Positions 1,622 through 61,912 of a stretch of 63,488 bases of DNA are shown here, piece by piece (within the stretch, counting starts at the first letter, position 1; every line of letters starts with the position of its first letter). Under the pieces are notes generated by a model. The model was not told where the DNA came from. It worked only from the letters and a program-made list of their open reading frames with translations, and made no database searches. The stretch covers positions 64,001 through 127,488 of IMG/VR virus record IMGVR_UViG_3300009826_000001; one strand, 5' to 3'. The position numbers and the translations under genes were made by a program. Source of the stretch: a virus. Lineage: Duplodnaviria > Heunggongvirae > Uroviricota > Caudoviricetes.

Positions 1622-1975
1622 ATGCAGGTCGGGTCAGCGCGCGGCGCCTTTGGTGTCGTGGTATGGCCCGCCTATATCGGCGTGGTCACCAGCGCCGGCG
1701 TCGAACCCGAATTCGGGTGGGACTACAACCGCGGCCAGATCCGCTGGAGCGTGTGCGACGGCGAGGTCATCGGCGAGGCCAGCGTCGAGGTCCCCGGCTC
1801 CGTCCTGGATTACACCCACGTCATCTACACGCATCACCCCACCAAGATGCCGTACTGGACGGTTCAGAAATTCTCCCATCCCTTTCACCTGCCGCAAGGG
1901 GGCACCATCCGGCTGTCCCGGATCACTGAACGCGACGTGACACCACTACGACCCGATCCGGTGCTCCATGACTAG
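1622..1975 (+). CDS. Hypothetical phage protein (tail/lysis boundary)
   Basis: Good codon bias; WPAYIG...RGQIxW...YTHxxY pattern resembles mycobacteriophage tail-region proteins. Confidence 0.5.
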   Translation: MQVGSARGAFGVVVWPAYIGVVTSAGVEPEFGWDYNRGQIRWSVCDGEVIGEASVEVPGSVLDYTHVIYTHHPTKMPYWTVQKFSHPFHLPQGGTIRLSRITERDVTPLRPDPVLHD

Positions 1976-2120
1976 GCCGCTGTGGCTCGCGCTGCTGATC
2001 GCCTTCATCGTCCTGGCGCTCCTGGCCGCGATGGTCATCCTGGACTACCACCACTCCCTGCCGCAGCTGCCGGAGCCACAGCCCGAACCGGCTATTTACC
2101 CCGGGGCGGTGATGACATGA
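1968..2120 (+). CDS. Small single-TM membrane protein
   Basis: MTRPLWLALLIAFIVLALLAAMVIL hydrophobic run; overlaps both neighbours (ATGA coupling at the 3' end). Confidence 0.5.
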   Translation: MTRPLWLALLIAFIVLALLAAMVILDYHHSLPQLPEPQPEPAIYPGAVMT

Positions 2121-2308
2121 CCAAGGCAGGGCTCTACCTGATTCTCTGCGGGATTGTCGTGCTGATGATCGGCGCAGTGATCCTGCTCAACGCGTGCGCG
2201 CCGCCGCACCGGCCGCGCCATCTCTGCTACGACGACGCCCGGTTCTGCCCACGCGCAGCGATCCTGCACGAACAGCCCCAGCCGCTCGTCGGGTACGGGC
2301 AGCGATGA
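2117..2308 (+). CDS. Small single-TM membrane protein
   Basis: LYLILCGIVVLMIGAVILL TM; ATGA overlap with lysin A. Confidence 0.5.
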   Translation: MTKAGLYLILCGIVVLMIGAVILLNACAPPHRPRHLCYDDARFCPRAAILHEQPQPLVGYGQR

Positions 2309-3786
2309 CCGAGCTGAGATTGGACTACGACCGGAGCCTGGTCCCGCAGGTCACGGCCTGGTCCTGTGGAGCGGCCGCGGCCGAGATCATCTTGGACAGC
2401 CTGGGCCGCAATCCCGGTGAGTGGCAACTCATTTCAGAAATTGGCACCCACACCGGCGGCACCGATCACATCGGATGGATAGTAGATCGCAGCCTGCGCA
2501 AGCGGGTGCCCGAGGCTGACTACCGGGTCGTGGAGATGCCGCGCGACCCGCCGACCGACTCGCAGGCCGAGGCGCTCTGGCAACACATCACCCGCTCGAT
2601 TAGGGCCGGCTTCGGGCTGCCGATGAACTGGGTGGTCCCGGCCAACAACCGCCCGCGCGGCGTCAAGGGCTCCATCAGTCCGGGTTATCCCGCGTCCACC
2701 ACCTACCACTACGTCGCCTGCATGGGTTTCGCCGAACATGAGGCCGCCGCCAACGTGCCGGGTGGGCGCGCGGTGTGGATCGCCGATTCGGCCAACTTCG
2801 GCAACATCCAGGGATTCTGGATCAGCTTCTGGCAGTGCGCGACGCTGATCCCGCCCAAAGGCTACGGCTGGGCCGCGGCCTCGCCGATCGTCGTTGAGCC
2901 GCCGCCGGCGGTCGTCGCGCCGCCGGCGCCCGGTGACGTCGACCGGGTGGGGCTGCTGACCGAGCTGATGGGCAACGCGGTGACCCGCGAGCGGTACGCG
3001 GAGCTGCTGGCGCATGTGGCCGACGCGCTGGTGCGTACCGACTGCCTGACCGTCGACCGCATAGCCATGTGGATCGCCCAGATCGGGCACGAAAGCGTCG
3101 GCTTGAAATACTTCCGCGAGCTCTGGGGGCCCACGCCCGATCAGTTGACCTACCAGGGCAGGATGGGCAACGACCAGCCCGGGGACGGGCAGCGGTACCT
3201 TGGACGGGGCCCCTTGCAGGTCACCGGGAAAAACAACTACCGAAACCTCTCGAAGTGGGCCTTCGACCGCGGTTATATCGAGGACCCGCAGCTGTTCGTG
3301 ACCAACCCCGAGCTGCTGGAAACACCCGAGTTCGGCTTCATGGGCGCCATCTGGTACCTCACCGAATGGCATAACTGGTATTCGGGCCGCGAGCCGATCA
3401 TGGTGATGGCCGACCGACGCGACATCCGGGGCGTCACGCACGCGATCAACGGCGGCTACAACGGGCTGCCCGACCGGGAGGGCCGCTACAACCGGGCGCT
3501 GGGCCGCGGTGATGCCCTCCTGGCACTGGTGAGCGCGCCCGAATCCGGGCAGGAACCGCCCGACCTGGAGCCCGAACTGCCCTATGTGCCGCCCGGGCCG
3601 GAACCCGAGCCGGAATTGCCCTATGTGCCACCGCCCGGGCCGCCTACCACGATTCCGCTGATGCCATCGCCCGAGCAGTGGGACCAGATGATGGCGCTGC
3701 AACGCGAGACACTCGACCTGGTGCGCGACCTGGCCGAGGTCACCGTCCAGATCGCCGGACTGCTCACCGAGCAGGTGAACCGATGA
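2305..3786 (+). CDS. Lysin A (N-terminal C39-like peptidase + GH19 chitinase-like domain + Pro/Glu-rich tail)
   Basis: QVTAWSCGAAAA (Cys-peptidase motif) and HYVA; GH19 motifs AQIGHES, YLGRGPLQVTGKNNY, INGGYNGL; duplicated EPELPYVPPPGP at about 3568-3642. Confidence 0.9.
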   Translation: MTELRLDYDRSLVPQVTAWSCGAAAAEIILDSLGRNPGEWQLISEIGTHTGGTDHIGWIVDRSLRKRVPEADYRVVEMPRDPPTDSQAEALWQHITRSIRAGFGLPMNWVVPANNRPRGVKGSISPGYPASTTYHYVACMGFAEHEAAANVPGGRAVWIADSANFGNIQGFWISFWQCATLIPPKGYGWAAASPIVVEPPPAVVAPPAPGDVDRVGLLTELMGNAVTRERYAELLAHVADALVRTDCLTVDRIAMWIAQIGHESVGLKYFRELWGPTPDQLTYQGRMGNDQPGDGQRYLGRGPLQVTGKNNYRNLSKWAFDRGYIEDPQLFVTNPELLETPEFGFMGAIWYLTEWHNWYSGREPIMVMADRRDIRGVTHAINGGYNGLPDREGRYNRALGRGDALLALVSAPESGQEPPDLEPELPYVPPGPEPEPELPYVPPPGPPTTIPLMPSPEQWDQMMALQRETLDLVRDLAEVTVQIAGLLTEQVNR

Positions 3787-4325
3787 GCATCGAGGACCTG
3801 CGCCGGGCCGCCGAGCGACTGGCGACCGCCGCACGGATACCGCCCACCGAGGCGGCGCCCCAGCTCCCCGTCACCGGCCTGGTCGCCTCCATCCAGGAGG
3901 AGCTACTGGCCCAGCCGTGGCTGCGCGAGGTGTACCCGGGCCTGTCGGTGACGGGGATACTCGACGGCGCGACCAAGGCCGCGCTCACCGAGTTCCAGGA
4001 ACGTGCCGCGCAGTTCGGGGCCCAGCTCACCGCGATCCCGCTCTCACTACCCCAGCCCCAGGCGCAAATGAGCGCCCAGTGGCAGCTGCCGCCGGTGCGC
4101 GCCGCAGCGCGTCAGCCCCGCGGCTGGTTGGCCGCGGTGATCTCGCTGGTGGGGATGCTGATCACGGTGCTGACCCTGATCACCGGCCTGGGCATCCTGT
4201 CGCCCGACGCCCGCGACGCCATTGCGGTCGTGCTGGCCGTGCTGACCCCGATCGCCGTCTTCTACGCACCAACGAAGGGAGTGTCCGATGCCGTCACGAC
4301 TGAGCCGCCGCCGGCTGGACCATAG
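3783..4325 (+). CDS. Probable holin (2 C-terminal TMs) with N-terminal peptidoglycan-binding-like segment
   Basis: ATGA overlap with lysin; TMs WLAAVISLVGMLITVLTLITGLGIL and IAVVLAVLTPIAVFYAP; N-terminal VASIQEEL...LSVTGILDGATKAALTEFQ. Confidence 0.6.
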   Translation: MSIEDLRRAAERLATAARIPPTEAAPQLPVTGLVASIQEELLAQPWLREVYPGLSVTGILDGATKAALTEFQERAAQFGAQLTAIPLSLPQPQAQMSAQWQLPPVRAAARQPRGWLAAVISLVGMLITVLTLITGLGILSPDARDAIAVVLAVLTPIAVFYAPTKGVSDAVTTEPPPAGP

Positions 4326-6935: not shown

Positions 6936-6967
6936 AGGAGTGCCCGGATTCGGGCGCTCAGATTCCT

Positions 6968-10450: not shown

Positions 10451-11395
10451 ATGTCCATCGAGCAAGCCAACCACGCCGAACCAGAAGTCATGGTGAGCCA
10501 GCCGGCCACCAAGATGCAGCTGCGGCTGCGCGCCGAGGTCGAAGCACTCAACGATGCCTACCGCTTCGCATCGGCGCTGAGCAAGACCCAGATGGTGCCG
10601 CGGGAGTACCAGCAGTCCTACATCCCCAAGAACGAGCGGGAGCCGCTCGGCGAGACGGCGATCCAGAACCTCGCCGCCGCGATCATGTACGGGATGGAGA
10701 TCGGCCTATCTGCGGTGCAGTCCGCGCAGAACGTCTTCGTCGTCCAGGGCCGTCCGGCCGTCTACGCGCGCACGATGGCCGGCCAGGTGCGCCAGGCCGG
10801 CTACGTCATCGAGCCGGTCGAGGAATCCGACGATCGGTGCGTCTGGAAGGCGCTGCGCGATGGTGCATGGGCGTTCTCGGAGTGGACGATGGACATGGCC
10901 ACCAAGGCGGGTTACACCACCAACGACATGTACCGCAAGAACCCGCGCGCCATGCTGCGTGCCAAGTGCATCGCCGACGTGTGCCGGATCAAATACCAGG
11001 ACATCCTCTTGGGGATGGCCTACACCGTCGAGGAGCTGCAGCTCGAGCACCAGACGATGACGCGCATCGAGCCCGCATCGGTGGTCAAGGGCCTGGCCAA
11101 GCTGCGCGAGCTGGCCAATAACGGCAACAAGAAGGTGGTTGAAGCCGAAGCCCCGCCCGAATCCGGGCAGGAACCCGAGCCTGAACCCGAGCCCGAAGCC
11201 GACGCACCGGCCGTGGGCGCCCAGCTGGCCGAGATCAAGAAGCTCTACAAGGCCCGCGGCTTCACCGCCAAGGACATGCTCGGCGACATGGCGCAGTACC
11301 TGTGCCGCGACGAGCCGCTGCGGGACTTTACCGAGCTGACCTACGGCGAGGCCGCCGATGTCATCAAGTACCTGACCACCCCGCCGTCGAAATGA
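10451..11395 (+). CDS. recT: RecT-like single-strand annealing protein
   Basis: AAIMYGMEIGL...VFVVQGRP, YRKNPRAML.AKC, LLGMAYTVEEL; follows the YqaJ gene. Confidence 0.8.
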   Translation: MSIEQANHAEPEVMVSQPATKMQLRLRAEVEALNDAYRFASALSKTQMVPREYQQSYIPKNEREPLGETAIQNLAAAIMYGMEIGLSAVQSAQNVFVVQGRPAVYARTMAGQVRQAGYVIEPVEESDDRCVWKALRDGAWAFSEWTMDMATKAGYTTNDMYRKNPRAMLRAKCIADVCRIKYQDILLGMAYTVEELQLEHQTMTRIEPASVVKGLAKLRELANNGNKKVVEAEAPPESGQEPEPEPEPEADAPAVGAQLAEIKKLYKARGFTAKDMLGDMAQYLCRDEPLRDFTELTYGEAADVIKYLTTPPSK

Positions 11396-18109: not shown

Positions 18110-18483
18110 CACTGTCCCTTCTGGACGAGGTTGTCGTACGGCAGGAATTCTTGTCCAGCTTCCAGGAGCTGCCTCTCCTGAGTCTTGAGGCGCGTTTGCG
18201 CATGGTGATCGCGGTCGTAAGCAAGATGACACCGCTGGCACATGGCCAGCAGGTTATCGCCGCGACAATTCTCGGGGGTGTGATCCAGGTGGGCGACGGT
18301 CAGGATGATCCGAGCGCCCGTTTCCGGGCTGGTCCCGTAGTCCTCCCGGCCGCACCAGCCGTGGTGGCACCCGCAGTGCCCGGAGCACTCGCAGCGGCTG
18401 TGCGCGCGGTCCAGCCGGATGTGCCGGCTGATGGCCGGCCAGTCCTTGGGGTAGCGATCGCGCTGGCTAGGCCGTATCGGCAT
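18109..18483 (-). CDS. HNH endonuclease-like protein
   Basis: MPIRP...YPKDW...LTVAHLDHTPENC...NLLAMCQRCHLAYD. Confidence 0.8.
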   Translation of the reverse strand: MPIRPSQRDRYPKDWPAISRHIRLDRAHSRCECSGHCGCHHGWCGREDYGTSPETGARIILTVAHLDHTPENCRGDNLLAMCQRCHLAYDRDHHAQTRLKTQERQLLEAGQEFLPYDNLVQKGQ

Positions 18484-22297: not shown

Positions 22298-22993
22298 CTA
22301 GGTTGTGACGTGGTTACCCGGTTCCGGGCAACGTCGCGGCAAAGCATGAAGCGTGCGAATGTCGTGAACGCGCTCGGGCAGCACGACCACCTCATACTCA
22401 AAGCGGCGCTCGAGATAGGCGATGACGTCGGTGCGGTAGACCCAGCCGTGCGCGACGAAGCTGTCCTCACAGGGCCCACAGCGCGTGGCATACCAGCCGG
22501 CGATCACCGAGTTGGTGGTCCAGCTCAGGCCGTCCTGCGTACCCCGGCTGCTGTACCCGCGGTAGATGAACGCCTTGCCGGGGAATATCTCGACGAACCG
22601 TCGCGACTCGCCCTCGGTCATCATGTGGTCGCTGTGGCGCCGGCGTGACGAGAGCAGCTCGCGCCAGGTCGCCATGTCGCGCCAGAGGCTCTGCGCAGCG
22701 CAGTAGAGCTCACCGAGTAGTCGCCAATACTGCTTGTCGGTCAGGTGATCCTCAATCTCGGCCAGCGCGTCGAGCCGGTGACCCTCAGCGTGTAGCTCGA
22801 TGAACCGCTTCCAGTCCTTATCGACGAACGCGCAGGCGGCCTGGATGCGCTTGTTGCGCAGCATCGCGTTGTAGAACTCGTTGAATTCCGGGCGGTGGGA
22901 CTCCGAGTACACCAAAGGGTGAGTGATGGTCACCGATCCGTCGTCGTGCTCACGGCGGTGAGCTAACAGCTCCGGGTCGAGGTCGACGATCAT
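22298..22993 (-). CDS. Putative ADP-ribosyltransferase-like protein (R-S-E motifs)
   Basis: IYRG, GLSWT, RFEYEVVV in the canonical order; ATGA overlap start. Confidence 0.5.
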   Translation of the reverse strand: MIVDLDPELLAHRREHDDGSVTITHPLVYSESHRPEFNEFYNAMLRNKRIQAACAFVDKDWKRFIELHAEGHRLDALAEIEDHLTDKQYWRLLGELYCAAQSLWRDMATWRELLSSRRRHSDHMMTEGESRRFVEIFPGKAFIYRGYSSRGTQDGLSWTTNSVIAGWYATRCGPCEDSFVAHGWVYRTDVIAYLERRFEYEVVVLPERVHDIRTLHALPRRCPEPGNHVTT

Positions 22994-28004: not shown

Positions 28005-28064
28005 GGAGTTACCCTCTTTCTGTTTGTGTGGAAAAACCGATACCCGGATTCGGGTAACGGCGTG

Positions 28065-31140: not shown

Positions 31141-31685
31141 GCGACGAACCCTCCTTGTAGGAATTTCTGCAGTTTGGCGCCACAGTCAGGACAGAGCACC
31201 TTCTTCTCGCCGGTCGCACGGTTGAGCTTCCACACCTGGACGTCAAGCCTGGTCAGCTCACCGCTGTAGTCGATCGGTTTGTAGCACCCGGCACAGCGCT
31301 CGCCACCCACCCGGATTCGGGTCTCCAGTGCCTCGATGAGCTCGCGCATCACCAGATCGGGCAGCTCGGCGGTATGAGCCATCGGATGGTCGGCATAGGC
31401 GATCTGGGTATCGCCCGCATCGCGGTAGACGCCGATAGCGAATCCCACCGTCGATACCAGCGCAGGCTGTTCCCGGTCCAGCCGGTCGCGCGTCGGCTGG
31501 TCGGTGATAGTTGCCTCGTGGCCGTTCGGGCTTTTCGCCGAGTCGGTGATCATCACCGTGGTGTCCGTGCCGAAGTACCCGACCAGGGCCGTACAGCCGC
31601 CGCCGGTATCCCACAGCTGGAACGTCACGCCCAGCGTTTCCTCCAGCACGTCGACCATCGGCGCGTACAGCGATGGCTCACTCAT
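31137..31685 (-). CDS. Hypothetical protein (WDTGGGC family) with C-terminal Zn ribbon
   Basis: SD GGAGG; paralog of 49225-49629. Confidence 0.6.
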   Translation of the reverse strand: MSEPSLYAPMVDVLEETLGVTFQLWDTGGGCTALVGYFGTDTTVMITDSAKSPNGHEATITDQPTRDRLDREQPALVSTVGFAIGVYRDAGDTQIAYADHPMAHTAELPDLVMRELIEALETRIRVGGERCAGCYKPIDYSGELTRLDVQVWKLNRATGEKKVLCPDCGAKLQKFLQGGFVA

Positions 31686-32928: not shown

Positions 32929-32980
32929 TTTCGTTTCTCCATTTCGTGGGGATTTGGATTTACCCGTTTCCGGGTGGGTG

Positions 32981-34955: not shown

Positions 34956-35122
34956 GGTTGTTGCTTCCTTTCGGTGTTGGTTTCCTGGTTGCCCGGATTT
35001 GGGTCGGGCTGGTCGAGCTTGTTGACGGCCTGGTGGAACCGCTTGTCCTCGAGCGGCCCGTGGTGCCACGCCCGCCGCCGCTTCCAGTGCTTGCCCTTCT
35101 GCGGTTTGCCATCGCCGCCCAC
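34952..35122 (-). CDS. Small basic hypothetical protein
   Basis: SD GAAAGGAG before GTG; ATGA overlap with parB. Confidence 0.4.
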   Translation of the reverse strand: MGGDGKPQKGKHWKRRRAWHHGPLEDKRFHQAVNKLDQPDPNPGNQETNTERKQQP

Positions 35123-38728: not shown

Positions 38729-38802
38729 CAGTTCTCCTTCGGTGTGTGTGTGGGGATGAAATTGGTCTGGGGGGTACCCGAATTTCGGGACACCCACCGT
38801 GG

Positions 38803-40108: not shown

Positions 40109-40163
40109 TTCTTTCTCCTGTTCATTTCCGTGGGGTTTGTGCGATACCCGGATTCGGGTGTCG

Positions 40164-41849
40164 TCACAGGTCGAGCTGACGGCTCTGTGAGGCGACCGAC
40201 CGTGTCATGGTCAAGACCTGCTCAGTTCTGGTGGCCGGCTTGGCACGCCCGGCCCATTCCTCGCGCAGATCCCTGATCTCCTTGTCCTTGGTCTTGGCCA
40301 GCGGCACCACGTCGCGCGCCGCCATCAACAGATCCTTTGTGGTGATCTCGCGCTGGCCGTCCGCGAACGCGGTGTACATGCCGTCACGCACCAGTGCGGC
40401 GATCTCTGCGCCGGTGAACGTGTTGGTGGCCGAGGCGATCTCGTCCAGGTCCATGTCGGCCATCGCGTCGGCATCGCGCTTGCGCTCCCGCAACGCCGCC
40501 CGTGCCACGGCCACCCGCTCGGTCTCGTTGGGCAGATCGACCCAGAAGATTTCGTCGAAGCGGCCCTTACGCATGAACTCCGGCGGGAGCGCCGAGGCGT
40601 CGTTGGCCGTGGCCATGACGAACGCCTGTCCGTTGCGTTCCTGCATCCACGTCAGGACCGCACCCAGCATGTCCGCAGACACGCCGCCGTCAGCACTCCC
40701 TGACGTGGCGCCCTGCAGCGCCTTCTCGATCTCGTCCCACCAGACGATGCACCGGCCCAGCGCCTCGATCACGCTGAACGCCTTGCGCAAGTTCTGCTCG
40801 GAGTCGCCGACGAACTTGCTCTTGAGCGCACCCAGGTCGAGCCGGATGACCGGCACGCCCCACTCGATGCCGGTGCATTTGACGATGAGCGACTTCCCGC
40901 AGCCCGAGATGCCGATCAACAGGATGCCCAGCGGGGTGGGCAGGTTGTACTCGCGCGCCGCGTCGCTCCAGGCCATCTCGAGGCGTTTGAGGAACAGTTT
41001 GGTGTTCTCATGGCCGCCGACGCACTCGAAGCCACCGGGGCCCTCGATCCATTCCAGTGCCGGATTGCTGGCGATCACCTGCTTTTTCTCCTGGGCGACC
41101 ATCGCCGGGTCGATCACCTGCTTGAGCACCAACGAGGTCGCAAAACACGACGCGGCCTCGTTCTCGGTGAGCCCGATCGAGGCGTCGATCGCCGCTGTGC
41201 GCGCCTCGCCGCTGATGGATGCCCGAATCGCTGCCTTCATGTCCGCGGTGATCCTCGCTTCACCCGTTTCCGGGTCGACCGCTTCGCTGTTGAGCAGCGG
41301 CTCGCAGGCGTCATCGAGGATCTTGCCCATCTCGAATCGGTCGGGCATCGGCCAGTCGACGACCTGGGCGTCACTGGCGATCTCCGGCGGGATGTCGGGA
41401 TTGGCGGTGACGATGATGATGGTCTGGGCTCGGTCGCTGGGCAGCTTGGGCAGGTCGTTGATCAGGTTCCGCAAGGCACGCTGGTTGATCCAGAACGGCT
41501 CCTTGAGGTAGGGGATCAGGTCGAACATCACCCATACACAGCGGCTGCGGTTCTCGCGGATCACAGTGAACGCCTCGCGCACGTCTTCGACACCGCGATC
41601 ACCCATCAGCTGCCTGCCGGCCAAGTCGGTGAAACCGCGGGCGACGTCGTAGTAACGGGTTTCGTACTGCGGCCGGATGGATGCGGCCATCTCGAACAGA
41701 TACCGGCCGGCGCGAGCTTCTTGGGCGGTACGGACGATGATGAGGCCGGTGCGTGCTCGGACCTTTGCCTGGACCATCGTTGCGGCGACTTTCGAGGCGA
41801 ATTGGGGCGCCTCGGGCTTCGCACTCTTGCGGGGGGACTTAACGGACAT
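40164..41849 (-). CDS. AAA+ ATPase (Ycf46/Vps4-like; degenerate N-terminal plus active C-terminal AAA domain)
   Basis: Walker A GISGCGKS, Walker B VWWDEIEK, ATAN sensor, PPEFMRKGRFDE arginine finger; C-terminus SRQLDL. Confidence 0.9.
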   Translation of the reverse strand: MSVKSPRKSAKPEAPQFASKVAATMVQAKVRARTGLIIVRTAQEARAGRYLFEMAASIRPQYETRYYDVARGFTDLAGRQLMGDRGVEDVREAFTVIRENRSRCVWVMFDLIPYLKEPFWINQRALRNLINDLPKLPSDRAQTIIIVTANPDIPPEIASDAQVVDWPMPDRFEMGKILDDACEPLLNSEAVDPETGEARITADMKAAIRASISGEARTAAIDASIGLTENEAASCFATSLVLKQVIDPAMVAQEKKQVIASNPALEWIEGPGGFECVGGHENTKLFLKRLEMAWSDAAREYNLPTPLGILLIGISGCGKSLIVKCTGIEWGVPVIRLDLGALKSKFVGDSEQNLRKAFSVIEALGRCIVWWDEIEKALQGATSGSADGGVSADMLGAVLTWMQERNGQAFVMATANDASALPPEFMRKGRFDEIFWVDLPNETERVAVARAALRERKRDADAMADMDLDEIASATNTFTGAEIAALVRDGMYTAFADGQREITTKDLLMAARDVVPLAKTKDKEIRDLREEWAGRAKPATRTEQVLTMTRSVASQSRQLDL

Positions 41850-41932
41850 ACTCTCTCCTATTTGTTGGATGGATTACCCGAATTCGGGTTTTCCGGTGGG
41901 GATTCAAAGGTATATTTCAACCTTCACTACTA

Positions 41933-42754: not shown

Positions 42755-42993
42755 GAATCCTCCTCGGTGATTTGATAGTCGCGATTGTGTTCGCCCTTGG
42801 CGACGTGGGCGTCCATGTCAGCAGTGCTGCCCTCAAACGAGCAACCCGTTTCCGGGCAGCCGCAGTAGTCGCCGTAGTCGCCGTCCTCGTCGCGGTCGAA
42901 CGGATCGGTGGTCAGCCACCGATCCAGCGCGTTGTCCAGGTGCCGATCGCCGAAGCTCATGCCGGTACGTCCTATTCTTCTGACGTGGGCCAT
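42751..42993 (-). CDS. Small acidic Zn-finger-like protein
   Basis: CPETGCSF...H...H; start may be 42961. Confidence 0.5.
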   Translation of the reverse strand: MAHVRRIGRTGMSFGDRHLDNALDRWLTTDPFDRDEDGDYGDYCGCPETGCSFEGSTADMDAHVAKGEHNRDYQITEEDS

Positions 42994-43986: not shown

Positions 43987-44023
43987 GTTGTTCTCCTGTT
44001 CTGTGTAAATGCCCGGATCTGGG

Positions 44024-46381: not shown

Positions 46382-46503
46382 GCTGATGTTCTCCTTCTGT
46401 TGTTGTTTTGGCCCAGCTCCCGAATTTCGGGAGCTGGGTTTTTCCTGAGTTCCTCGACGGCTAATCCGATCCAGACCGTGAAACACAATGCGGCCCATAA
46501 CAT
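46378..46503 (-). CDS. 41-aa single-TM peptide coupled to the voltage-sensor gene
   Basis: MLWAALCFTVWIGLAVEELRK...; TGATG overlap upstream and ATGA overlap downstream. Confidence 0.5.
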   Translation of the reverse strand: MLWAALCFTVWIGLAVEELRKNPAPEIRELGQNNNRRRTSA

Positions 46504-46910: not shown

Positions 46911-46955
46911 CAGCTTTCCTTCCGTGTGGTGGGGAATTGCCCAGATTCGGGTGGT

Positions 46956-48901: not shown

Positions 48902-48941
48902 GGTGTTCCTTTCGTTGTGGTTGTTACCCGAGTTCGGGTAG

Positions 48942-49850: not shown

Positions 49851-50545
49851 GCCGACTCCTCCAGCTGCGAACCACGCGCGAGCGCCCGACGTTCGCGTTC
49901 GGAGCGACCACCCCAGATGCCGAACCGCTGCTCGTTGTCCAAGGCAAACTGTAGGCACTCCTGTGTCACCGGACACCGCTCACACACCTTCTTGGCGCCA
50001 GCTGTCGAGCCGCCCTTTTCGGGAAACCACAGGTCGGGATCGACCTGGGCGCATAGTGCTGCGCGCACCCAATCACCCGGCATCGCGGCTGCCAGTGACA
50101 GCAACGGGTCCAGCACGCCGCGGCGCTGCCTGATCCCGTAGCAGGATTTGCACAGCCGCCGGTGTGTCGCACGAGTAGGCCGGCCACAGATCGCGCAGGC
50201 CAACAAGGGTGTGACCGGCGGCGGTGGGTCGGGTTCCCGAATTTCGGGAACCGGCTCGGGGTCGACCTGCTGCTGCTCTGCCGCCTTGGTGCGCCGCCAG
50301 GGATGGCGACCGCGCACCACTGCCGCTGCGGCCTCGCGCTTGGCATCGCCAGGACGGCGATCGGGGTCAATACAGCACAAAAAAAAGGCGATATCGGGGT
50401 CGATTTTGCGCCGGCCGTTGACGATGAAGGCGATGGTGATCTCGTCGGCTGGACCGGCCGAAGCTATCTCTCGATAGCTCCAGCCGGCCGCCACCAGCCG
50501 TGCGATGTGCTCACGCGCACGCCGCGCCGGCACCAGGGCGCTCAT
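49847..50545 (-). CDS. whiB: WhiB-family transcription factor fused to N-terminal HTH and Zn finger
   Basis: C-terminal ALCAQVDPDLWFPEKG...AKKVCERCPVTQECL...GIWGG; N-terminal LVAAGWSYREIAS; middle CAIC...LCKSC. Confidence 0.85.
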   Translation of the reverse strand: MSALVPARRAREHIARLVAAGWSYREIASAGPADEITIAFIVNGRRKIDPDIAFFLCCIDPDRRPGDAKREAAAAVVRGRHPWRRTKAAEQQQVDPEPVPEIREPDPPPPVTPLLACAICGRPTRATHRRLCKSCYGIRQRRGVLDPLLSLAAAMPGDWVRAALCAQVDPDLWFPEKGGSTAGAKKVCERCPVTQECLQFALDNEQRFGIWGGRSERERRALARGSQLEESA

Positions 50546-50880: not shown

Positions 50881-51017
50881 GGCTTGGGCTGCGCTTCCAC
50901 TACCTGCCGCCGCCCGGATTCGGGTCGTGGGTCTGCCGGCTTGGGTATGACCTGCTGCCGGCTGCGTTCGATGATCCTGGCCCAGCCAGCCAGTGATCGG
51001 TTGTCGTTGTTCTGCAT
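50877..51017 (-). CDS. Small protein, first gene after promoter copy 4
   Basis: CCCCACGAAAGG SD. Confidence 0.45.
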   Translation of the reverse strand: MQNNDNRSLAGWARIIERSRQQVIPKPADPRPESGRRQVVEAQPKP

Positions 51018-52239: not shown

Positions 52240-52298
52240 GCAAAGGCCCAGGTCAGGCTCTCCTGTTTCCCCGGATTCGGGCGGAACGAGGGCATAAG

Positions 52299-53238: not shown

Positions 53239-53371
53239 GTCGTTCTTCTTTCGTTGGACCCGTTTCCGGGTGTTTGGTTCCCGTCTCCCGAATTTCGGGA
53301 AATCGGCCTGGCGTCGCGTGCTTTCCGGCCAGGTCTGAAAGCCGTTATGTCTATTTCGACCTTCAACTACT

Positions 53372-53429: not shown

Positions 53430-54026
53430 TTAGGCGTGTTGTGCGGGCTTGGGCATCTCCCGCGCGACCGGACGAGCCGCGCGCTTGCGCGGCTTCTCCT
53501 CGACCGCCTCGGCAACCTCGGCGATGTCAATGCCGTCGAGTGGTTCCCTGGCTTTCCCGACGCTGTTGATCGGCAGACCCGCTTGCCTGGCGACGGCCTG
53601 GGCGGCGACCCCGAACGCGAACGCACAGCCCAGGTTCTCGGCCTTTTCCTCGACTGAGGCGCCGGGACGTTCGGCCGCGCGCTGGTAGCGGTCCTCTTTG
53701 GAGAGGAACTGCTTGTGCAGCCGGATGAGCTCGGGCGACATCCTGCGCAGCAGCATCTTGCAGCCCTGATGCCCACAGCTCTCGTGCTCAGGGACGGCGA
53801 GCAGCAGCGTCTCGCGCACGATGCGGCCGCCGCCATACGACGTGGTGGCGCGTATGCGGTGAACCTTGTGCGGCGTGTCACCAGCGCCTTTGATCTGGAT
53901 CGGGTGGGTGCCCAGGCACCGCTTGCTCACTGTTGCGTCGTGCATGTTGTTCTCACTTTCTGGTTGGGGTTTGGCCGCCCGGATCTGGGTGAACCATTCT
54001 TGCGGGAGGGTGACGTAATCGGTCAT
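53430..54026 (-). CDS. Hypothetical protein (alternative start 53945)
   Basis: ATGA overlap at 54026; second SD-supported ATG at 53945. Confidence 0.55.
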   Translation of the reverse strand: MTDYVTLPQEWFTQIRAAKPQPESENNMHDATVSKRCLGTHPIQIKGAGDTPHKVHRIRATTSYGGGRIVRETLLLAVPEHESCGHQGCKMLLRRMSPELIRLHKQFLSKEDRYQRAAERPGASVEEKAENLGCAFAFGVAAQAVARQAGLPINSVGKAREPLDGIDIAEVAEAVEEKPRKRAARPVAREMPKPAQHA

Positions 54027-54355: not shown

Positions 54356-54430
54356 TGCTTTCTCCTTCCCGAAATTCGGGTGATTTGTTGTGGGATTTGA
54401 AGGTCTTCGATTTCTCAACCTTCAACTACT

Positions 54431-54474: not shown

Positions 54475-54557
54475 GGGGTGGTCAAACGTGGGGTGGTCAA
54501 CGACGGGTACACGCAAAAAATTTTGGCGGCAGCGCATGAATCGTGCCCGGATCTGGG
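54475..54557. repeat. Upstream cassette: 2x GGGGTGGTCAA, A6T4 tract, CAGCGCATGAA, CCCGGATCTGGG
   Basis: Near-identical to 56824-56921; partial copy at 51156-51206. Confidence 0.85.
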
Positions 54558-55715: not shown

Positions 55716-55770
55716 CGTTCTCGATTCCTTTCGTTGTTTCCCGAATTTCGGGGTTACCCGGATCTGGGTA

Positions 55771-56335: not shown

Positions 56336-56671
56336 TTAGATGACGACGGACTCAGGGCTGTATTTCTCGAGGGCCTCGTCGCTGTGGTCGGCGCACAGCC
56401 ACTCGTGGCGGACGTTCTTCTCGTTCCTGACTGGACCGCTGGTCATCTCGACGTCCCGGCAGCCGCAGTCGCGGACGCTGACCACGAGCTGCAAGTCCTG
56501 CGGAACGCCGTGACCGATCTCGGATTCCTTGAGCCAGAACACGCGTCGGGTGGCGAACTGCTCCAGCTGCTCGATGCGGAAACCCGAAATTCGGGAAGCC
56601 AGCTCGATCGCGGCCGCGTCGTTGTCGTGCTCGGGCTGGCCGGTTCCGGCCGGCGTGGAATTGGCGTGCAT
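56336..56671 (-). CDS. Hypothetical protein, first gene after promoter copy 8
   Basis: SD AAAGGAG. Confidence 0.55.
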   Translation of the reverse strand: MHANSTPAGTGQPEHDNDAAAIELASRISGFRIEQLEQFATRRVFWLKESEIGHGVPQDLQLVVSVRDCGCRDVEMTSGPVRNEKNVRHEWLCADHSDEALEKYSPESVVI

Positions 56672-56823: not shown

Positions 56824-56921
56824 GGGGTGGTCAACGCGGGGTGGTCAACGCGGGGTGGTCAACGTGCGGTACACGCAAAAAAATTTTGCGCGGCAGCGCA
56901 TGAATCGTGCCCGGATCTGGG
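56824..56921. repeat. Upstream cassette: 3 tandem 14-bp GGGGTGGTCAACG(C) repeats, A7T4 tract, CAGCGCATGAA, CCCGGATCTGGG
   Basis: Boxes at 56824, 56838, 56852; matches 54475-54557. Confidence 0.85.
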
Positions 56922-56930
56922 TGACGCCAA

Positions 56931-57689: not shown

Positions 57690-57735
57690 TGCAGTTCCTT
57701 TCAATGGATGGTTGTCGCCGTTCCCGAATTTCGGG

Positions 57736-57855
57736 GCCGGAGGGTTGGTCGGCAGCCGGAGGGTCCGGTGCTGCCGGAGGGTTCGATCGCCAAGGAGGGT
57801 CACTCTCACAAGGAGGGTCATACCGCCAAGGAGGGTCACACTGCCGGAGGGTCAC
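57736..57855. repeat. Seven GGAGGGT cores at 16-19 nt period with variable spacers
   Basis: Cores at 57739, 57758, 57776, 57794, 57812, 57830, 57846. Confidence 0.85.
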
Positions 57856-58196
57856 ATATCCGCCAGTCGGCGCAGCGCCTCGCCATGCTGCTCGGTCACG
57901 CGCTTGAGCGCCGCTTTGAACACCTCCTCTCGCGTGTACCAGTTGAACGGGTCGGCCGCGATCTGCTCGGCCCGCTCGAACAGCTGCGGCACGGTCACAT
58001 TGAGCTTGCGTGCGATGTCGGCCAGCATGATCCCGCTGGCCTCGCGCACGCCGCTCTCGACGTTGCCCAGATGCGAGTTGGAGATCACCGACCGCAGATC
58101 ATCGCGAGACAGCCCGCGCTCCATGCGGATCGCCTGGATCGCACGCCCCATTGCCTGACGGCGACGCTGCTCGTCGGCCACCCATTGCACGGTCAT
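57852..58196 (-). CDS. XRE-family HTH regulator
   Basis: AIQAIRMERGLSRDDL..VISNSHLGNVESGVREAS..ML.DIA..LNV. Confidence 0.85.
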   Translation of the reverse strand: MTVQWVADEQRRRQAMGRAIQAIRMERGLSRDDLRSVISNSHLGNVESGVREASGIMLADIARKLNVTVPQLFERAEQIAADPFNWYTREEVFKAALKRVTEQHGEALRRLADM

Positions 58197-58920: not shown

Positions 58921-58983
58921 TTCGTTCCTTTACGGGTTGTGCCCCGCGCTCCCCGAATTTCGGGAAGCGCGGGGCTGAATTGG

Positions 58984-59166: not shown

Positions 59167-59476
59167 GTGATGTTAAGTATGCTGCAGCGTATCTCTGCAC
59201 GCCGTTTCCCGAATTTCGGGAACCGACTGCCGAAAAACATTTCGTTTCGTAAAAACATTTGTGCGTTTGTCGAACAAATCGACAACGCATGAATTTCACC
59301 CAGAACCGGGTGGGACGCATGACACGATCCCGATCCCGCGGCGCGGCGCGCGCGCGCGGTGGCGGCGCGGCGTGGGGACCGGGAGCCTTGGCCTGCGCGA
59401 AAAAGCCCGGTCCCGTTTCCCCCCGAATTTCGGGGCGGGGGCCGGGCTTCCCGAAATTCGGGAAATCCGAGCGCTG

Positions 59477-59510
59477 AAAAAGCCCCGCCGCTGGATGCGG
59501 CGGGGCTTTT
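59477..59510. terminator. Intrinsic terminator (bidirectional-looking)
   Basis: AAAAAGCCCCGCCGC-N4-GCGGCGGGGCTTTT. Confidence 0.85.
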
Positions 59511-59518: not shown

Positions 59519-60277
59519 CTAGGCGCTGGCCTTGGCCTTGGTCGCCCGGCTCGTGCGAGTCGCGGCGGTCTTTTGGACCTTGGTGATCTCGCCCTTGCTC
59601 TCGCGCATGGCGTTGACCATGTTCAGCGCTTCGGCCAAGGTCAACGCGTACTTGGCACGCTCTGCCTTGGTCATATCGGCGATGTTGTCATTGGCCTTGG
59701 TGGTCGCGGAAATCGCCTGGTCAAGCGACTTCTTGGCCTTGGCCTTGACGTCGGTGGTCCCGCCGGTGGTCCGTTGCTTGCGCGGCGGAGCGGCGGCGGC
59801 CACGATTTCGTCGGAGGTCAACTCTTTGCCCTCGCTGGCAGCCTGGGCTTTTGCTGCCTTGATTCGCTTGTTCACCTCATAGACCGAGCTGGCAGGCATC
59901 CCGGACGCTTCCATCGCTTCCGCATAGCCTTTGCCCAAGTCAAGAGTGATTCCGGCGATGGCCTTACGAACAATGTCAGTGTTCTCTACCTCAAACGCTG
60001 CCATCTGGTACGCAAGGAACTTTGACCAGCTACCGAATGTCTTGCCATTGCTGTCCTTTGCGAATCGCCAGACTTCCGCGACCTTGCCCGACTCAACGTC
60101 GGTCACCTTGCGGTTGACCTGGTAGAAACCCGCCGCAAGAGTCTTGACGGACTTGCCAGTCCCGACCATCGCCCGACCGAAGATCGTGACGCTGTTCACG
60201 ATGGCCTTGGCATCTGCAAAGACTGCCTCGCCCGCCGCGGCCGCGGCGGCGTTCTCAATTGCCTTGTTCTCAGACAC
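59519..60277 (-). CDS. Ala/Lys-rich probable DNA-binding protein (HTH); paralog of 52345-53238
   Basis: EVWRFAKDSNGK...FLA and LDLGKGYAEAMEASGMPASSVYEV. Confidence 0.65.
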   Translation of the reverse strand: MSENKAIENAAAAAAGEAVFADAKAIVNSVTIFGRAMVGTGKSVKTLAAGFYQVNRKVTDVESGKVAEVWRFAKDSNGKTFGSWSKFLAYQMAAFEVENTDIVRKAIAGITLDLGKGYAEAMEASGMPASSVYEVNKRIKAAKAQAASEGKELTSDEIVAAAAPPRKQRTTGGTTDVKAKAKKSLDQAISATTKANDNIADMTKAERAKYALTLAEALNMVNAMRESKGEITKVQKTAATRTSRATKAKASA

Positions 60278-60393: not shown

Positions 60394-60537
60394 TGGGAGC
60401 GCTCCCACGATCCCGAAATTCGGGGAGCAAAATCGCGCAATTCTGCACGATCGGCCCGCCAGCGAGCGCTCGCTGGCGACGCCAATCGGCGACCGGGTAG
60501 GCCATGCGAATCTTCAGCGCCGCCGCCGGCGGCGCTG
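60394..60537. repeat. Palindrome cluster: 14-bp and 22-bp perfect palindromes plus a 10-bp-stem hairpin
   Basis: TGGGAGCGCTCCCA 60394-60407; CGCCAGCGAGCGCTCGCTGGCG 60457-60478; CAGCGCCGCC-gcc-GGCGGCGCTG 60515-60537. Confidence 0.85.
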
Positions 60538-60789
60538 GCCGAAGGCCGCCAAATGTATCCCCGCCGGTTCTTGTGCGTTTTCGATGCGTTTTGCCCAAAT
60601 ACGGTGTCATCGGCCTGGATCAGCCCCGATTCGCCCCGATTCGCGCGGATTCGATGGGACTTCCAGCAGCTAACAGGGCCGCGGTTGTCTGGCACCGTGA
60701 ATTTTGAGCCTTCGCCCAGCTCGGTATCAAGCCGGTTGACACCGGCAGCAAATGTCTAGTGCGGCCTAGACGAGTCCGTCAACCACGCA

Positions 60790-61359
60790 CTAGACAACGG
60801 CGATCGGGGGCTCAGCAGCGTGGCCGCTGCCCGGCCGGTGCATCACCACCAGGCCGGAGTCCATGATCGCCATCACGCCACCGTTGCGCAGCCGCTCATT
60901 GCCGCCATCGGGCTCCCATTCCTCCAGGCTCTTGCCGCCCAGGCGCAGTGGCAGCGGCCCCGCGGTCTTCTCTAGGTAGGACACTGTGGAGCGGTGCGCG
61001 ACGATCAGCGGCACGCGGGTGCCCGACAGCAGCGGTTCCAGCGCGAGCTGGCAGCGGTTGGCGTACTGGTTGAGGGTCTCGTCGTCCTCGTTGTAGGCGC
61101 GCAGTTCCCAGATCGGCGTGGCCGGTGCGGTGCCCAGCGTGCGCGCGGTGATCGCGGCAGTCTCGCGGGTGCGCGCCAGGTCGCTGGAAACCAGGTAATC
61201 CGGGGCCCGGTGTCCCTCCTCGATGGCGTTCTTGAGGTAGTCGGCACCGGACTGCACGCTGGCGCGCCCGGCGTCAGTGAGGCCGATCTGGAGCCATTTC
61301 TCCGGGGTGGGACTCAGCGCCGTCTCGCCGTGGCGCATCAGGTACGCGAGTAGCTTCAC
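60790..61359 (-). CDS. Histidine phosphatase (phosphoglycerate mutase-like)
   Basis: YLMRHGET, GLTDAG, VSSDLARTRETA, LIVAH. Confidence 0.85.
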   Translation of the reverse strand: MKLLAYLMRHGETALSPTPEKWLQIGLTDAGRASVQSGADYLKNAIEEGHRAPDYLVSSDLARTRETAAITARTLGTAPATPIWELRAYNEDDETLNQYANRCQLALEPLLSGTRVPLIVAHRSTVSYLEKTAGPLPLRLGGKSLEEWEPDGGNERLRNGGVMAIMDSGLVVMHRPGSGHAAEPPIAVV

Positions 61360-61508
61360 TCGCCGACGCCGGCCACGCCACCGCCGCCCATCCCCGGCGG
61401 TGCTTCGGTGGGCTCGTCGTCTTCGCCGGCGCTCATGACGCGGTCGAATTCAGCGCGAGCGTCGTCGGCCCATTGCGCCCAAGACTTGGGGTGCTCACCG
61501 GATGTCAT
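61356..61508 (-). CDS. Small acidic protein
   Basis: GTGA overlap with the phosphatase gene. Confidence 0.4.
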   Translation of the reverse strand: MTSGEHPKSWAQWADDARAEFDRVMSAGEDDEPTEAPPGMGGGGVAGVGE

Positions 61509-61912
61509 GGCAGCAGAATAGGCCGTGGCGCGCCCGGATTCGGGCAGATCCACCGCTACACTTTCGTGTTGTCCACCTGGAAGCGCGCCGTTAACACCTG
61601 GATGCGGAGCACCTGGCTTTCTCGCCGAAATCCACTTCCAGGTGGACCTATCCGAAGATCGGGTTGGGCGGGATGACGATGACCTTCATCGTGTGCATCG
61701 GACACACCCCGTCGATGAGCGCCCGACGTGGCCGGGCCTGACCACACTCCGCACAGTTGGCGTAGTCGGCGAACCACGGCTTGCGATGCGGCATCCACCA
61801 GTTCATCTGCCGATACTATCGAGGTCATGAGCTGGAACGACATGTGGTGGTGGTGCGAGGCGTGCCAGACCTATCACCCGAGTGGCAACAGTTGTTATGG
61901 ACCGAGGACATC

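What the first reader, a model, noticed from the sequence alone, without database searches (positions are those of the whole stretch)
1706..61544. About 38 dispersed CCC(G)...(C)GGG dyad sites concentrated in the early region: candidate stoperator, parS or nucleoid-protein sites
Seen in sequence: about 25 12-mers (CCCGGATTCGGG, CCCGGATCTGGG, CCCGTTTCCGGG, CCCGAATTCGGG etc.) and 13 13-mers (CCCGAAWTTCGGG). Density rises sharply from 38 to 61 kb. Many sit just upstream of an SD (28043, 40147, 41877, 44012, 48927, 53259/53287, 54368, 55740/55757, 57723, 58952), and others lie inside CDSs, producing PESG or PEIR peptides. The asymmetric GAATCC variant follows transcription direction: CCCGAATCCGGG on + in the rightward lysin and recT genes, and its reverse complement at the seven copies lying in or at the end of leftward units. 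My rough estimate is far below one expected copy of the exact 13-mer by chance in 63 kb. Established: cluster A mycobacteriophage stoperators are dispersed, transcription-oriented repressor sites, and ParB binds palindromic parS. Inference: a phage protein (ParB 33345-34955, XRE 57852-58196, or the HTH paralogs 52345/59519) binds these genome-wide. The mixed 12/13-bp spacing is unusual and could instead indicate small RNA hairpins (e.g. CCCG-GAAA-CGGG).
Basis: partly seen in the sequence, partly recalled or inferred. Interest (0 to 1): 0.8.

Follow-up and report, generated by a model that had tools for sequence, protein, structure and literature searches.

The report
Gene-boundary dyad repeats in a phage
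An uncultured relative of Corndog-type mycobacteriophages carries about 45 copies of a short GC-clamped palindrome, mostly in the gaps just ahead of its early genes. It is this lineage's own version of a repeat already known, and still unexplained, in related phages.

Summary
CCCG-N4-CGGG occurs 24 times and CCCG-N5-CGGG 16 times, against about 4.4 expected for each. The exact 13-mer CCCGAAWTTCGGG occurs 13 times, all between 38.8 and 60.4 kb. The window is the right half of a complete 127-kb phage from termite-gut metagenomes. The phage shares the Cluster O (Corndog) early-gene core: AAA ATPase, ParB-like protein, Ku and clamp. In the leftward early arm most copies lie after a stop codon and 12-48 nt ahead of the next start. 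The commonest 12-mer reads CCCGAAUCCGGG in the mRNA sense in all 9 window copies. Eight related lineages carry different dyads at the same syntenic gene boundaries, so this is the lineage-specific form of the known, unexplained Cluster O 17-bp repeat. This scan has met the same class several times on other DNA. Mechanism is open. I favour an RNA stem-loop at cistron boundaries read by a co-evolving phage factor (0.4) over a duplex-DNA operator (0.3). The ParB reading is not supported: its helix-turn-helix does not track the dyad across lineages, and there is no ParA, parS or integrase.

The parts
38777..38789 (-). 13-mer
   Evidence: intergenic; 48 nt before ATG at 38728
46419..46431 (-). 13-mer at tip of a longer stem
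   Evidence: 7 extra perfect pairs each side; 37 nt before ATG 46381
50236..50248 (-). 13-mer inside a gene
   Evidence: Pro-rich N-terminal part of WhiB-domain ORF 49847-50545
53287..53299 (-). 13-mer in a 5' leader
   Evidence: downstream of promoter 53400-53372; 16 nt 5' of the 12-mer at 53259
54368..54380 (-). 13-mer in a 5' leader
   Evidence: about 45 nt after promoter 54459-54431; abuts AAGGAG; ATG 54355
55740..55752 (-). 13-mer, second of a tandem pair
   Evidence: 24 nt before ATG 55715 of a CxxC protein
56583..56595 (-). 13-mer inside a gene
   Evidence: within ORF 56336-56671
57723..57735 (-). 13-mer
   Evidence: 33 nt before GTG 57689, after a Pro-rich ORF tail
58952..58964 (-). 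13-mer at tip of a longer stem
   Evidence: about 10 further pairs incl. one U-G in the sense strand; 31 nt before ATG 58920
59208..59220 (-). 13-mer upstream of a promoter
   Evidence: 39 nt before the -35 of consensus promoter 59166-59138
59422..59434 (-). 13-mer at tip of a terminator-like hairpin
   Evidence: outer GCCCGG/CCGGGC arms, then five T
59450..59462 (-). 13-mer between two terminators
   Evidence: follows the terminator of gene 59519-60277
60412..60424 (-). 13-mer upstream of a promoter-like site
   Evidence: about 45 nt before a TTGACA ahead of gene 60277
3538..3549 (+). 12-mer, AATC loop, coding
   Evidence: in frame as PESG in the linker of lysin-like gene 2194-3786
11156..11167 (+). 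12-mer, AATC loop, coding
   Evidence: PESG in Pro/Glu linker of gene 10451-11395
6943..6954 (-). 12-mer, AATC loop
   Evidence: 14 nt after the stop of leftward gene 6968-7504, between convergent genes
28043..28054 (-). 12-mer, AATC loop
   Evidence: 38 nt before ATG 28004 of the clamp gene
31310..31321 (-). 12-mer, AATC loop, coding
   Evidence: inside ORF 31137-31685
40147..40158 (-). 12-mer, AATC loop
   Evidence: between AAA stop (40164) and ATG 40108; syntenic dyad in all 9 lineages
50913..50924 (-). 12-mer, AATC loop, coding
   Evidence: inside ORF 50542-51087
52270..52281 (-). 12-mer, AATC loop
   Evidence: 18 nt after a terminator, 30 nt before promoter 52239-52211
61533..61544 (-). 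12-mer, AATC loop
   Evidence: non-coding stretch 61359-61648
18317..18328 (-). 12-mer, GAAA loop
   Evidence: gap between called genes 18241 and 18467; context unclear
32963..32974 (-). 12-mer, GAAA loop
   Evidence: 34 nt before ATG 32928 of Ku; syntenic dyad in all 9 lineages
41263..41274 (-). 12-mer, GAAA loop, coding
   Evidence: inside the AAA ATPase gene as PETG
42845..42856 (-). 12-mer, GAAA loop, coding
   Evidence: inside ORF 42751-42960
53259..53270 (-). 12-mer, GAAA loop
   Evidence: 20 nt before ATG 53238
44012..44023 (-). 12-mer, AGATCC centre
   Evidence: directly after a TAA stop; 25 nt before ATG 43986
53978..53989 (-). 12-mer, AGATCC centre
   Evidence: 32 nt before ATG 53945
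54546..54557 (-). 12-mer, AGATCC centre
   Evidence: inside a repeated terminator-to-promoter module
55757..55768 (-). 12-mer, AGATCC centre
   Evidence: 2 nt after a TGA stop; 4 nt 5' of the 13-mer at 55740
56910..56921 (-). 12-mer, AGATCC centre
   Evidence: same terminator-to-promoter module as 54546
41877..41888 (-). 12-mer, perfect palindrome
   Evidence: in the 5' leader of the AAA gene, 27 nt before ATG 41849; syntenic dyad in all 9 lineages
1706..1717 (+). 12-mer, perfect palindrome, coding
   Evidence: inside ORF 1622-1975
48927..48938 (-). 12-mer variant, AACT loop
   Evidence: after a TGA stop; 25 nt before ATG 48901
22317..22328 (-). 12-mer variant, GAAC loop
   Evidence: 30 nt before an ATG with AAAGGA
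34992..35003 (-). 12-mer variant (CCCA arm)
   Evidence: 36 nt before ATG 34955 of the ParB-like gene
46940..46951 (-). 12-mer variant (TGGG arm)
   Evidence: 29 nt before TTG 46910
59299..59310 (-). 12-mer variant
   Evidence: non-coding, in the promoter-upstream module of 59166

Best explanation
What it is (about 0.9): the sites are this lineage's version of the dispersed dyad repeat of Cluster O mycobacteriophages and their uncultured relatives.

How it most likely works (0.4): the repeat acts in the transcript. Each copy folds into a short stem-loop with a CCCG/CGGG clamp, often lengthened by one or two flanking pairs, and a 3-5 nt A-rich loop (about -5 to -8 kcal/mol). The stem-loop sits just after the stop codon of one gene, at the 5' edge of an A/C-rich unstructured leader that carries the next gene's Shine-Dalgarno. 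A phage-encoded factor that has co-evolved with the stem sequence would read these stem-loops. It would use them to mark cistron boundaries, either by protecting or creating mRNA ends or by gating ribosome access. This would tune expression of the many small early genes.

Shown: enrichment, placement, orientation, synteny, and lineage-specific replacement of the sequence. Inferred: that RNA is the active form, that a dedicated reader exists, and what the effect is.
For: 1. Placement. By reading the sense strand, 19 of 35 copies in the leftward arm lie between a stop codon and an SD, 12-48 nt from the start. With crude automatic gene calls, 13 of 41 copies fall 8-61 nt upstream of a start, against 8% expected (p = 1.6e-5). 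27 of 41 are non-coding, against 31% expected (p = 4.5e-6).
2. Synteny with changed sequence. All nine lineages carry their own dyad upstream of the AAA ATPase gene, between the AAA and gp95-like genes, and upstream of Ku. The dyads are:
- L106/L117: GTGTCCR..YGGACAC
- L107/L109: GTTCA-N5-TGAAC
- Cluster O: TGTTCGG-N3-CCGAACA
- L112: GTTGC-N5-GCAAC
- L113: GTCCGG-N3-CCGGAC
- L119: GTTCAAC-N-GTTGAAC
.
3. Arms fixed but loop length variable. Here the spacing is N4 or N5. In L117 it is N6 x7, N7 x9 and N8 x1 between GTCC and GGAC. That is trivial for a hairpin and awkward for a rigid dimer.
4. Nesting in longer hairpins. At least 8 of about 190 sites sit at the tip of perfect hairpins with 6-9 extra pairs of unrelated sequence (about 0.05 expected). 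These include terminator-like hairpins (window 59422; L106 position 424).
5. Orientation. The AATC-loop 12-mer is in the mRNA sense 9 of 9 times in the window. The GAAA (GNRA-type) loop is 5 of 5.
6. Corndog re-analysis. Sites 21-32 nt upstream of annotated starts read AAA in the sense strand 11:0. Other sites are TTT 6:3 (Fisher p = 0.002).
7. Predicted stability is adequate in most lineages, at -5 to -13 kcal/mol.
Against: - The arms are invariant within a genome while the loops vary. That is the signature of base-specific reading of duplex DNA; RNA-binding proteins usually read loops.
- In eight lineages the outer 5-bp arms keep a constant N7 spacing (17-bp site), as classic dimer operators do.
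- The L107/L109 hairpin is weak, at -2.2 kcal/mol.
- Five sense-strand copies read CCCAGAUCCGGG, an A.C mismatch rather than G.U.
- Several copies lie between a terminator and the next promoter, or 39-50 nt upstream of a -35. Little transcript is expected there.
- Loop A/T content equals that of the flanks, 0.55 against 0.58, so part of the orientation signal could be compositional.
- No RNA data exist, and no RNA-binding protein was identified.
Confidence: 0.4

Rival explanations
1. Duplex-DNA operators. A dimeric (or, for the asymmetric 12-mer, monomeric and polar) phage DNA-binding protein other than ParB binds the sites genome-wide. It acts as a global regulator or elongation roadblock for early genes, in the manner of Cluster A stoperators.
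For: - Invariant arms with variable centres, and a 17-bp overall geometry shared across lineages: TTCCC-N7-GGGAA here against TGTYC-N7-GRACA in relatives.
- Only one 1-mismatch variant of the 13-mer exists.
- Some copies lie 39-50 nt upstream of promoters or between terminators and promoters.
- Concerted, lineage-specific change implies a co-evolving specific binder.
- The Cluster O authors proposed dimeric regulators (PMC4351075).
- From my own knowledge, not checked here: the 17-bp conserved inverted repeats bound by the phiC31 repressor are a precedent.
Against: - Two spacings occur in this genome and three in L117.
- The sites are tightly coupled to stop codons and SDs.
- The sites nest inside longer hairpins.
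- No integrase was found, so no lysogenic silencing is needed.
- No core DNA-binding protein tracks the dyad.
Confidence: 0.3
2. parS- or KorB-operator-like loading sites for the phage ParB-like CTPase (33345-34955). The protein would load at the dyads and spread or slide to silence or organise the genome.
For: - The protein has the GQRRTLAARKAGL arginine patch and an HTH that aligns to Spo0J, ParB, KorB and Noc structures.
- It is a core gene of every dyad-bearing lineage.
- From my own knowledge: the copy number and 13-bp palindrome resemble the 12 KorB operators of RK2.
Against: - HTH recognition residues do not co-vary with the dyad, in two independent discordances.
- No ParA and no parS consensus.
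- A 42%-identical ParB-like gene occurs in a contig (L116) without any dyad.
- The variable spacing argues against it.
Confidence: 0.06
3. Recombination or cassette-boundary elements, or self-spreading hairpin repeats of the REP type. On this reading the dyads mark the joints at which small genes are gained and lost, and they are kept uniform by copying rather than by a reader.
For: - Cluster O genomes show insertions and deletions bounded by two repeats (PMC4351075).
- Tandem pairs at 53287/53259, 55757/55740 and 59450/59422 look like joints.
- Identical 17-20 nt stretches around coding copies occur in unrelated late genes.
Against: - Loops differ while arms stay fixed, so simple copying or gene conversion does not explain the pattern.
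- No IS200/RAYT-type transposase and no integrase.
- The syntenic positions are old, being shared by nine lineages.
Confidence: 0.1
4. Chance, codon usage or peptide repeats.
For: Four coding copies give the same PESG peptide in Pro-rich linkers.
Against: - No shuffle reaches the observed counts.
- The coding copies use identical rare codons (GAA, GGG).
- Most copies are non-coding.
Confidence: 0.01

Closest known systems
17-bp dyad repeat of Cluster O mycobacteriophages (TGTTCGG-N3-CCGAACA; Cresawn et al. 2015, PMC4351075; Ryadel, PMC6439249)
   Same: - More than 30 copies per genome with invariant arms and an A/T-rich centre.
- Mostly in short gaps of the leftward early arm, 21-33 nt before starts.
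- Same gene neighbourhood (AAA ATPase, ParB-like, Ku, clamp), with dyads at the same gene boundaries.
- Function unknown.
   Different: - The sequence is unrelated in the inner arm (0 matches with up to 2 mismatches).
- Arms are shorter.
- There are two spacings and several discrete sub-types.
- One asymmetric sub-type has strict sense orientation.
Extended start-associated sequences (ESAS) of Cluster K mycobacteriophages (Pope et al. 2011, PMC3203893), and the 18-bp inverted repeat of Microbacterium Cluster EG phages (Jacobs-Sera et al. 2020, PMC7302621)
   Same: - Inverted repeats just upstream of ribosome-binding sites.
- The consensus differs between sub-lineages.
- In ESAS the spacer is variable.
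- Conserved by gene family.
- Function unknown.
   Different: - Unrelated phages and unrelated sequences.
- ESAS arms are 17 bp and imperfect, and are linked to a conserved SD-like SAS that is not seen here.
Stoperators of Cluster A mycobacteriophages (own knowledge)
   Same: Dispersed short sites, mostly intergenic, oriented with transcription. The site and its reader co-evolve between sub-lineages.
   Different: - Stoperators are asymmetric and are bound by the immunity repressor of temperate phages.
- This phage has no integrase, and most of its sites are dyads.
parS / KorB operators of ParB-family proteins (own knowledge, plus structures matched)
   Same: Short palindromes in several dispersed copies. 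A ParB-family CTPase plus HTH is encoded.
   Different: No ParA and no parS consensus. The HTH does not track the site, and the spacing is variable.

Membership tests
Cluster O-type dispersed dyad repeat | Dozens of copies of one short inverted repeat with invariant arms | tested here: met
   13 exact 13-mers and about 30 12-mers; these are the top repeated words of the genome
Cluster O-type dispersed dyad repeat | Concentrated in short gaps of the leftward early arm, close to gene starts | tested here: met
Cluster O-type dispersed dyad repeat | Carried by a phage with the Cluster O early-gene core, with dyads at the same gene boundaries | tested here: met
   AAA ATPase 45% identical to Cluster O; ParB-like, Ku and clamp present; syntenic dyads in 9 lineages
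Cluster O-type dispersed dyad repeat | Sequence TGTTCGG-N3-CCGAACA with a fixed 3-bp spacer | tested here: not met
   0 matches with up to 2 mismatches; two spacings here
Cluster A stoperators | Asymmetric 13-14 bp site in one orientation relative to transcription | tested here: inconclusive
   The AATC 12-mer is oriented 9 of 9 in the window, but the 13-mer is a perfect palindrome
Cluster A stoperators | Temperate phage with integrase and immunity repressor | tested here: not met
   No tyrosine or serine integrase; an XRE-type HTH exists but its role was not tested
parS / ParABS or KorB operators | ParB-family CTPase plus HTH encoded | tested here: met
parS / ParABS or KorB operators | ParA partner and parS-type consensus | tested here: not met
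   This phage and L107 have a similar helix and different dyads; L106 and L117 have the same dyad and different helices
parS / ParABS or KorB operators | Direct binding of the protein to the site | not testable with these tools
   needs EMSA or ChIP
Intrinsic terminators | G+C-rich hairpin followed by a U tract | tested here: not met
   Only 59422 (sense) and 46419 (opposite strand) have a T run; the rest are followed by A/C-rich leaders
REP / RAYT-type hairpin repeats | Cognate IS200-like (Y1) transposase | tested here: not met
   No PF01797 match in the genome
Known RNA families (Rfam) | Match to a curated covariance model | tested here: not met
   0 matches at gathering score in the window

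The most novel reading that the evidence does not exclude
Corndog-type phages use a 'cistron punctuation code'. A phage-encoded protein specific for a hairpin stem (or a processing enzyme) has co-evolved with a lineage-specific stem-loop placed at gene boundaries. It cuts, caps or shields polycistronic early mRNA at each boundary. The closest analogies are Cas6 acting on CRISPR repeats and tRNA punctuation in mitochondria.
Probability: 0.12. Interest if true: 0.8.

Novelty: new variant of a known kind. Interest (0 to 1): 0.4.

Why it matters
Dispersed start-associated palindromes have been described in several actinobacteriophage clusters since 2011-2015 without any function. This window adds a strongly diverged member. 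Combined with eight related lineages, it supports three points that make the question testable:
- The position of the dyads is conserved while their sequence is replaced in concert, so a co-evolving reader must exist.
- Loop length can vary while the arms stay fixed.
- The obvious candidate, the ParB-like protein, does not track the site.

Cultivable Cluster O phages could settle the RNA-versus-DNA question with standard experiments. If the RNA reading holds, these elements would be compact, orthogonal cistron insulators for mycobacterial genetics.

Tried and rejected
- Close relatives. Megablast and blastn against isolated phages found none. Scanning IMG/VR for the 15-mer core gave 101 contigs with a single chance copy each, so no other record shares this dyad. 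IMG/VR held no AAA relative by single-protein search.
- Relatives without DNA. The two nearest metagenomic relatives (P0002 at 65% and P0004 at 62% AAA identity) have no DNA on hand. Synonymous-site conservation of the coding copies could therefore not be tested.
- Expression. No RNA holder is listed; the DNA holders are termite-gut metagenomes.
- Sense versus antisense folding energy of dyad plus/minus 12 nt. Antisense is more stable at 116 of 164 sites, as expected from the A/C-rich sense flanks. The test is confounded and uninformative.
- Loop A/T skew against the flanks shows no excess.
- Closing-pair covariation in L106/L117 shows a trend only (hand tally).
- The whole 195-kb relative G001 has only 20 sites, too few for an orientation test.
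- The copy near the Y RNA array (outside the window) lies outside the YrlA matches. The stretch is not unusually structured (z = 0.11) and may sit in a small rightward ORF.
- Pfam/PHROG scans of about 50 early ORFs found no RNA-binding or hairpin-specific protein. There is no RNase III.
- A weak KOW hit in 30402-30791 is below the family cut-off.
- Literature search found no functional follow-up of the Cluster O repeat.

Full report
**What the window is.** It is the second half (64001-127488) of a complete 127,488-bp virus record with direct terminal repeats and 64.9% G+C. The DNA is held by termite-gut metagenome runs. My GC3-based gene calls put rightward late, tail and lysis genes at 1-16.4 kb and a long leftward arm of small genes at 17-63.4 kb. 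No isolated phage is similar at the DNA level.

The leftward arm carries the early-gene core of Cluster O mycobacteriophages:
- an AAA ATPase 45% identical to those of Dylan, Firecracker and Catdawg;
- a ParB-like protein, Ku and a beta clamp;
- homologues of Corndog gp89, gp93 and gp95.

It also has near-consensus SigA-type promoters on the leftward strand, as Cluster O does (PMC4351075).

**Observation.** The counts hold.
- CCCG-N4-CGGG: 24 hits against 4.5 expected. CCCG-N5-CGGG: 16 against 4.3.
- CCCGAAWTTCGGG: 13 exact copies and only one 1-mismatch copy, against 0.05 expected.
- CCCGAATCCGGG with up to 1 mismatch: 18 hits against 0.62 expected.

These words top the list of repeated 12- and 13-mers in the genome. 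All 13-mers lie at 38.8-60.4 kb. The 12-mers occur genome-wide but are densest in the same arm. The 13-mer extends to a 17-bp palindrome, TTCCCGAAWTTCGGGAA.

The 12-mers fall into discrete sub-types. Read on the sense strand they are CCCGAATCCGGG (14 in the genome), CCCGGAAACGGG (5), CCCAGATCCGGG (5, plus 2 in the opposite sense), CCCGAATTCGGG (2), and singletons.

**Anatomy.** On the transcribed strand the typical arrangement is as follows. The stop codon comes first, then 0-15 nt, then the dyad. An A/C-rich stretch follows, often containing CCCCACGAAA, then the SD and the start codon. By hand, 19 of 35 copies in the leftward arm are of this kind, 12-48 nt from the start. Three of them lie in the 5' leaders of strong promoters (41877, 53287/53259, 54368).

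Nine or ten further copies are non-coding but not start-associated:
- four between a terminator and the next promoter (52270, 54546, 56910, 59450);
- two 39-50 nt upstream of a -35 (59208, 60412);
- one at the tip of a terminator-like hairpin (59422).

Six copies are in genes. With deliberately crude automatic gene calls the enrichment remains: 13 of 41 within 8-61 nt upstream of a start, against 8% expected (p = 1.6e-5), and 27 of 41 non-coding, against 31% (p = 4.5e-6).

The asymmetric AATC-loop 12-mer is in the mRNA sense in all nine window copies and in 13 of 14 genome-wide. Allowing for strand composition, this has a probability of roughly 0.004-0.005 (my calculation). The four late-gene coding copies are all in frame as PESG in proline-rich linkers with identical rare codons, so the nucleotide word is what is kept, not the peptide.

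**Relatives.** Protein searches found syntenic relatives in metagenomes. None has the CCCG dyad. Each has its own dyad, in similar numbers and in the same kind of place:

| Lineage | Dyad |
|---|---|
| L106, L117 | GTGTCCR..YGGACAC |
| L107/L109 | GTTCA-N5-TGAAC |
| Corndog and a Ryadel-like record | TGTTCGG-N3-CCGAACA |
| L112 | GTTGC-N5-GCAAC |
| L113, L118 | GTCCGG-N3-CCGGAC |
| L119 | GTTCAAC-N-GTTGAAC |

.

All nine lineages place their own dyad upstream of the AAA ATPase gene, between the AAA and gp95-like genes, and upstream of Ku. Six of nine also place one upstream of the ParB-like gene. Position is therefore old and conserved, while the sequence has been replaced in concert within each lineage. 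That requires either a co-evolving specific reader or a homogenising process. More distant ParB-like loci (L114, L116, L120-L122) have no such dyad.

**RNA or DNA?**

For a hairpin:
- The arms are fixed but the loop length varies. Here it is N4 or N5. In L117 it is N6 x7, N7 x9 and N8 x1, and L106 and L112 each have one off-length copy.
- At least eight of about 190 sites across lineages sit at the tip of perfect hairpins with 6-9 extra pairs of unrelated sequence. About 0.05 such sites are expected by chance. Window examples are 46419 and 58952; two are terminators.
- Orientation follows transcription.
- In Corndog, sites 21-32 nt upstream of annotated starts have AAA in the sense strand 11:0, while other sites are mostly TTT (Fisher p = 0.002). 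This is a correlation the original paper did not report.
- Predicted stabilities are -5 to -13 kcal/mol.

For a duplex operator:
- Invariant arms with free centres are the classic pattern for a dimeric DNA-binding protein.
- The outer arms keep an N7 spacing (a 17-bp site) in eight lineages. The 13-mer fits that geometry as TTCCC-N7-GGGAA.
- The L107-type hairpin is weak, at -2.2 kcal/mol.
- The CCCAGAUCCGGG sub-type has an A.C mismatch in the sense strand.
- Some copies lie where little transcript is expected.

Two further tests were uninformative: sense versus antisense folding energy and loop A/T skew. I therefore rank the RNA stem-loop reading first at 0.4 and the duplex operator at 0.3 (ParB excluded).

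**Candidate readers.** The ParB-like protein has the arginine patch GQRRTLAARKAGL and an HTH that aligns with Spo0J, ParB, KorB and Noc structures. It is a core gene. Its recognition helix, however, does not follow the dyad. This phage and L107/L109 are almost identical there but have unrelated dyads. L106 and L117 share a dyad but differ at five or more helix positions.

The genome has no ParA, no parS consensus, no integrase, no serine recombinase, no IS200-type transposase and no RNase III. No RNA-binding domain was found among about 50 early ORFs.

**Comparison with what is known.** The element is a homologue in kind and in place of the Cluster O 17-bp repeat, whose function is unknown (PMC4351075). 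The same class includes the Cluster EG 18-bp repeat (PMC7302621) and the Cluster K ESAS, which also has a variable spacer and a sub-lineage-specific consensus (PMC3203893). It fails the sequence and fixed-spacer criteria of the Cluster O repeat itself, so I file it as a new variant of a known kind. This scan has reported the same class at least eight times on other DNA, including the GTTCA-N5 lineage. That does not change the evidence, but it shows the phenomenon is common.

**Verdict.** This is an ordinary member of an unexplained class, with some added value for choosing experiments. Interest 0.4.

Noticed in passing
window 54480-54510, 56824-56864, 51156, 47837 (leftward strand): GTTGACCACCCC occurs in tandem (2-3 copies, 14-bp period) 20-60 nt upstream of the -35 of strong promoters. 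L106 has an analogous tandem array of TGGACCCTCC upstream of a promoter (L106 1790-1873). These are better operator candidates for a transcription regulator than the dyads.
   Followed up: partly
window 33330, 41950, 47343, 51134, 52239, 53400, 54459, 56760, 59166 (leftward): Near-consensus TTGACA-17-TATAAT promoters, each followed by a conserved start ATAGTAGTTGAAGGTTGAG that can fold into a 5' stem-loop. The same cassette is present in L106, L112, L113 and L119.
   Followed up: partly
window 54520-54600 and 56880-56960; also 59380-59510: A repeated operon-end module: strong terminator, then a dyad, then a second weaker terminator (TGCGCTGCCGCGCA followed by an A/T run), then the next promoter.
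   Followed up: no
window 49847-50545 (-): A WhiB domain (E = 8e-24) fused behind a 150-aa proline-rich N-terminal part that carries a 13-mer.
   Followed up: no
window 44024-44485 (-), 20753-21736 (-), 60790-61359 (-): An RNA-repair-flavoured gene set: PNKP-type HAD phosphatase, RlaP nucleotidyltransferase and a histidine phosphatase. The first half of the genome holds Ro and YrlA-like RNAs (Rfam match at genome 7960-8074).
   Followed up: partly
window 40164-40190 and the homologous gene ends in L106, L107, L109 and L117: The AAA ATPase ends in R-Q-L-D-[LI] in all lineages, which looks like a clamp-binding tail.
   Followed up: no
window 33017-33247 (-) and 55278-55715 (-): Small CxxC proteins of the Corndog gp89 family (motif HGTxxGYxxYxCxCxxC). 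This is a core gene placed right after the ParB-like gene in all lineages, and it is an untested nucleic-acid-binding candidate.
   Followed up: partly
Corndog NC_004685 47.5-68.8 kb (L110): The central triplet of the 17-bp repeat is AAA in the mRNA sense at all start-associated sites that have a homopolymer centre (11:0). It is mostly TTT elsewhere. The 2015 paper saw no meaningful orientation.
   Followed up: yes
window 30402-30791 (-): A 129-aa protein, 58% identical to its L107 counterpart, with a sub-threshold KOW motif hit (E = 5e-4).
   Followed up: no
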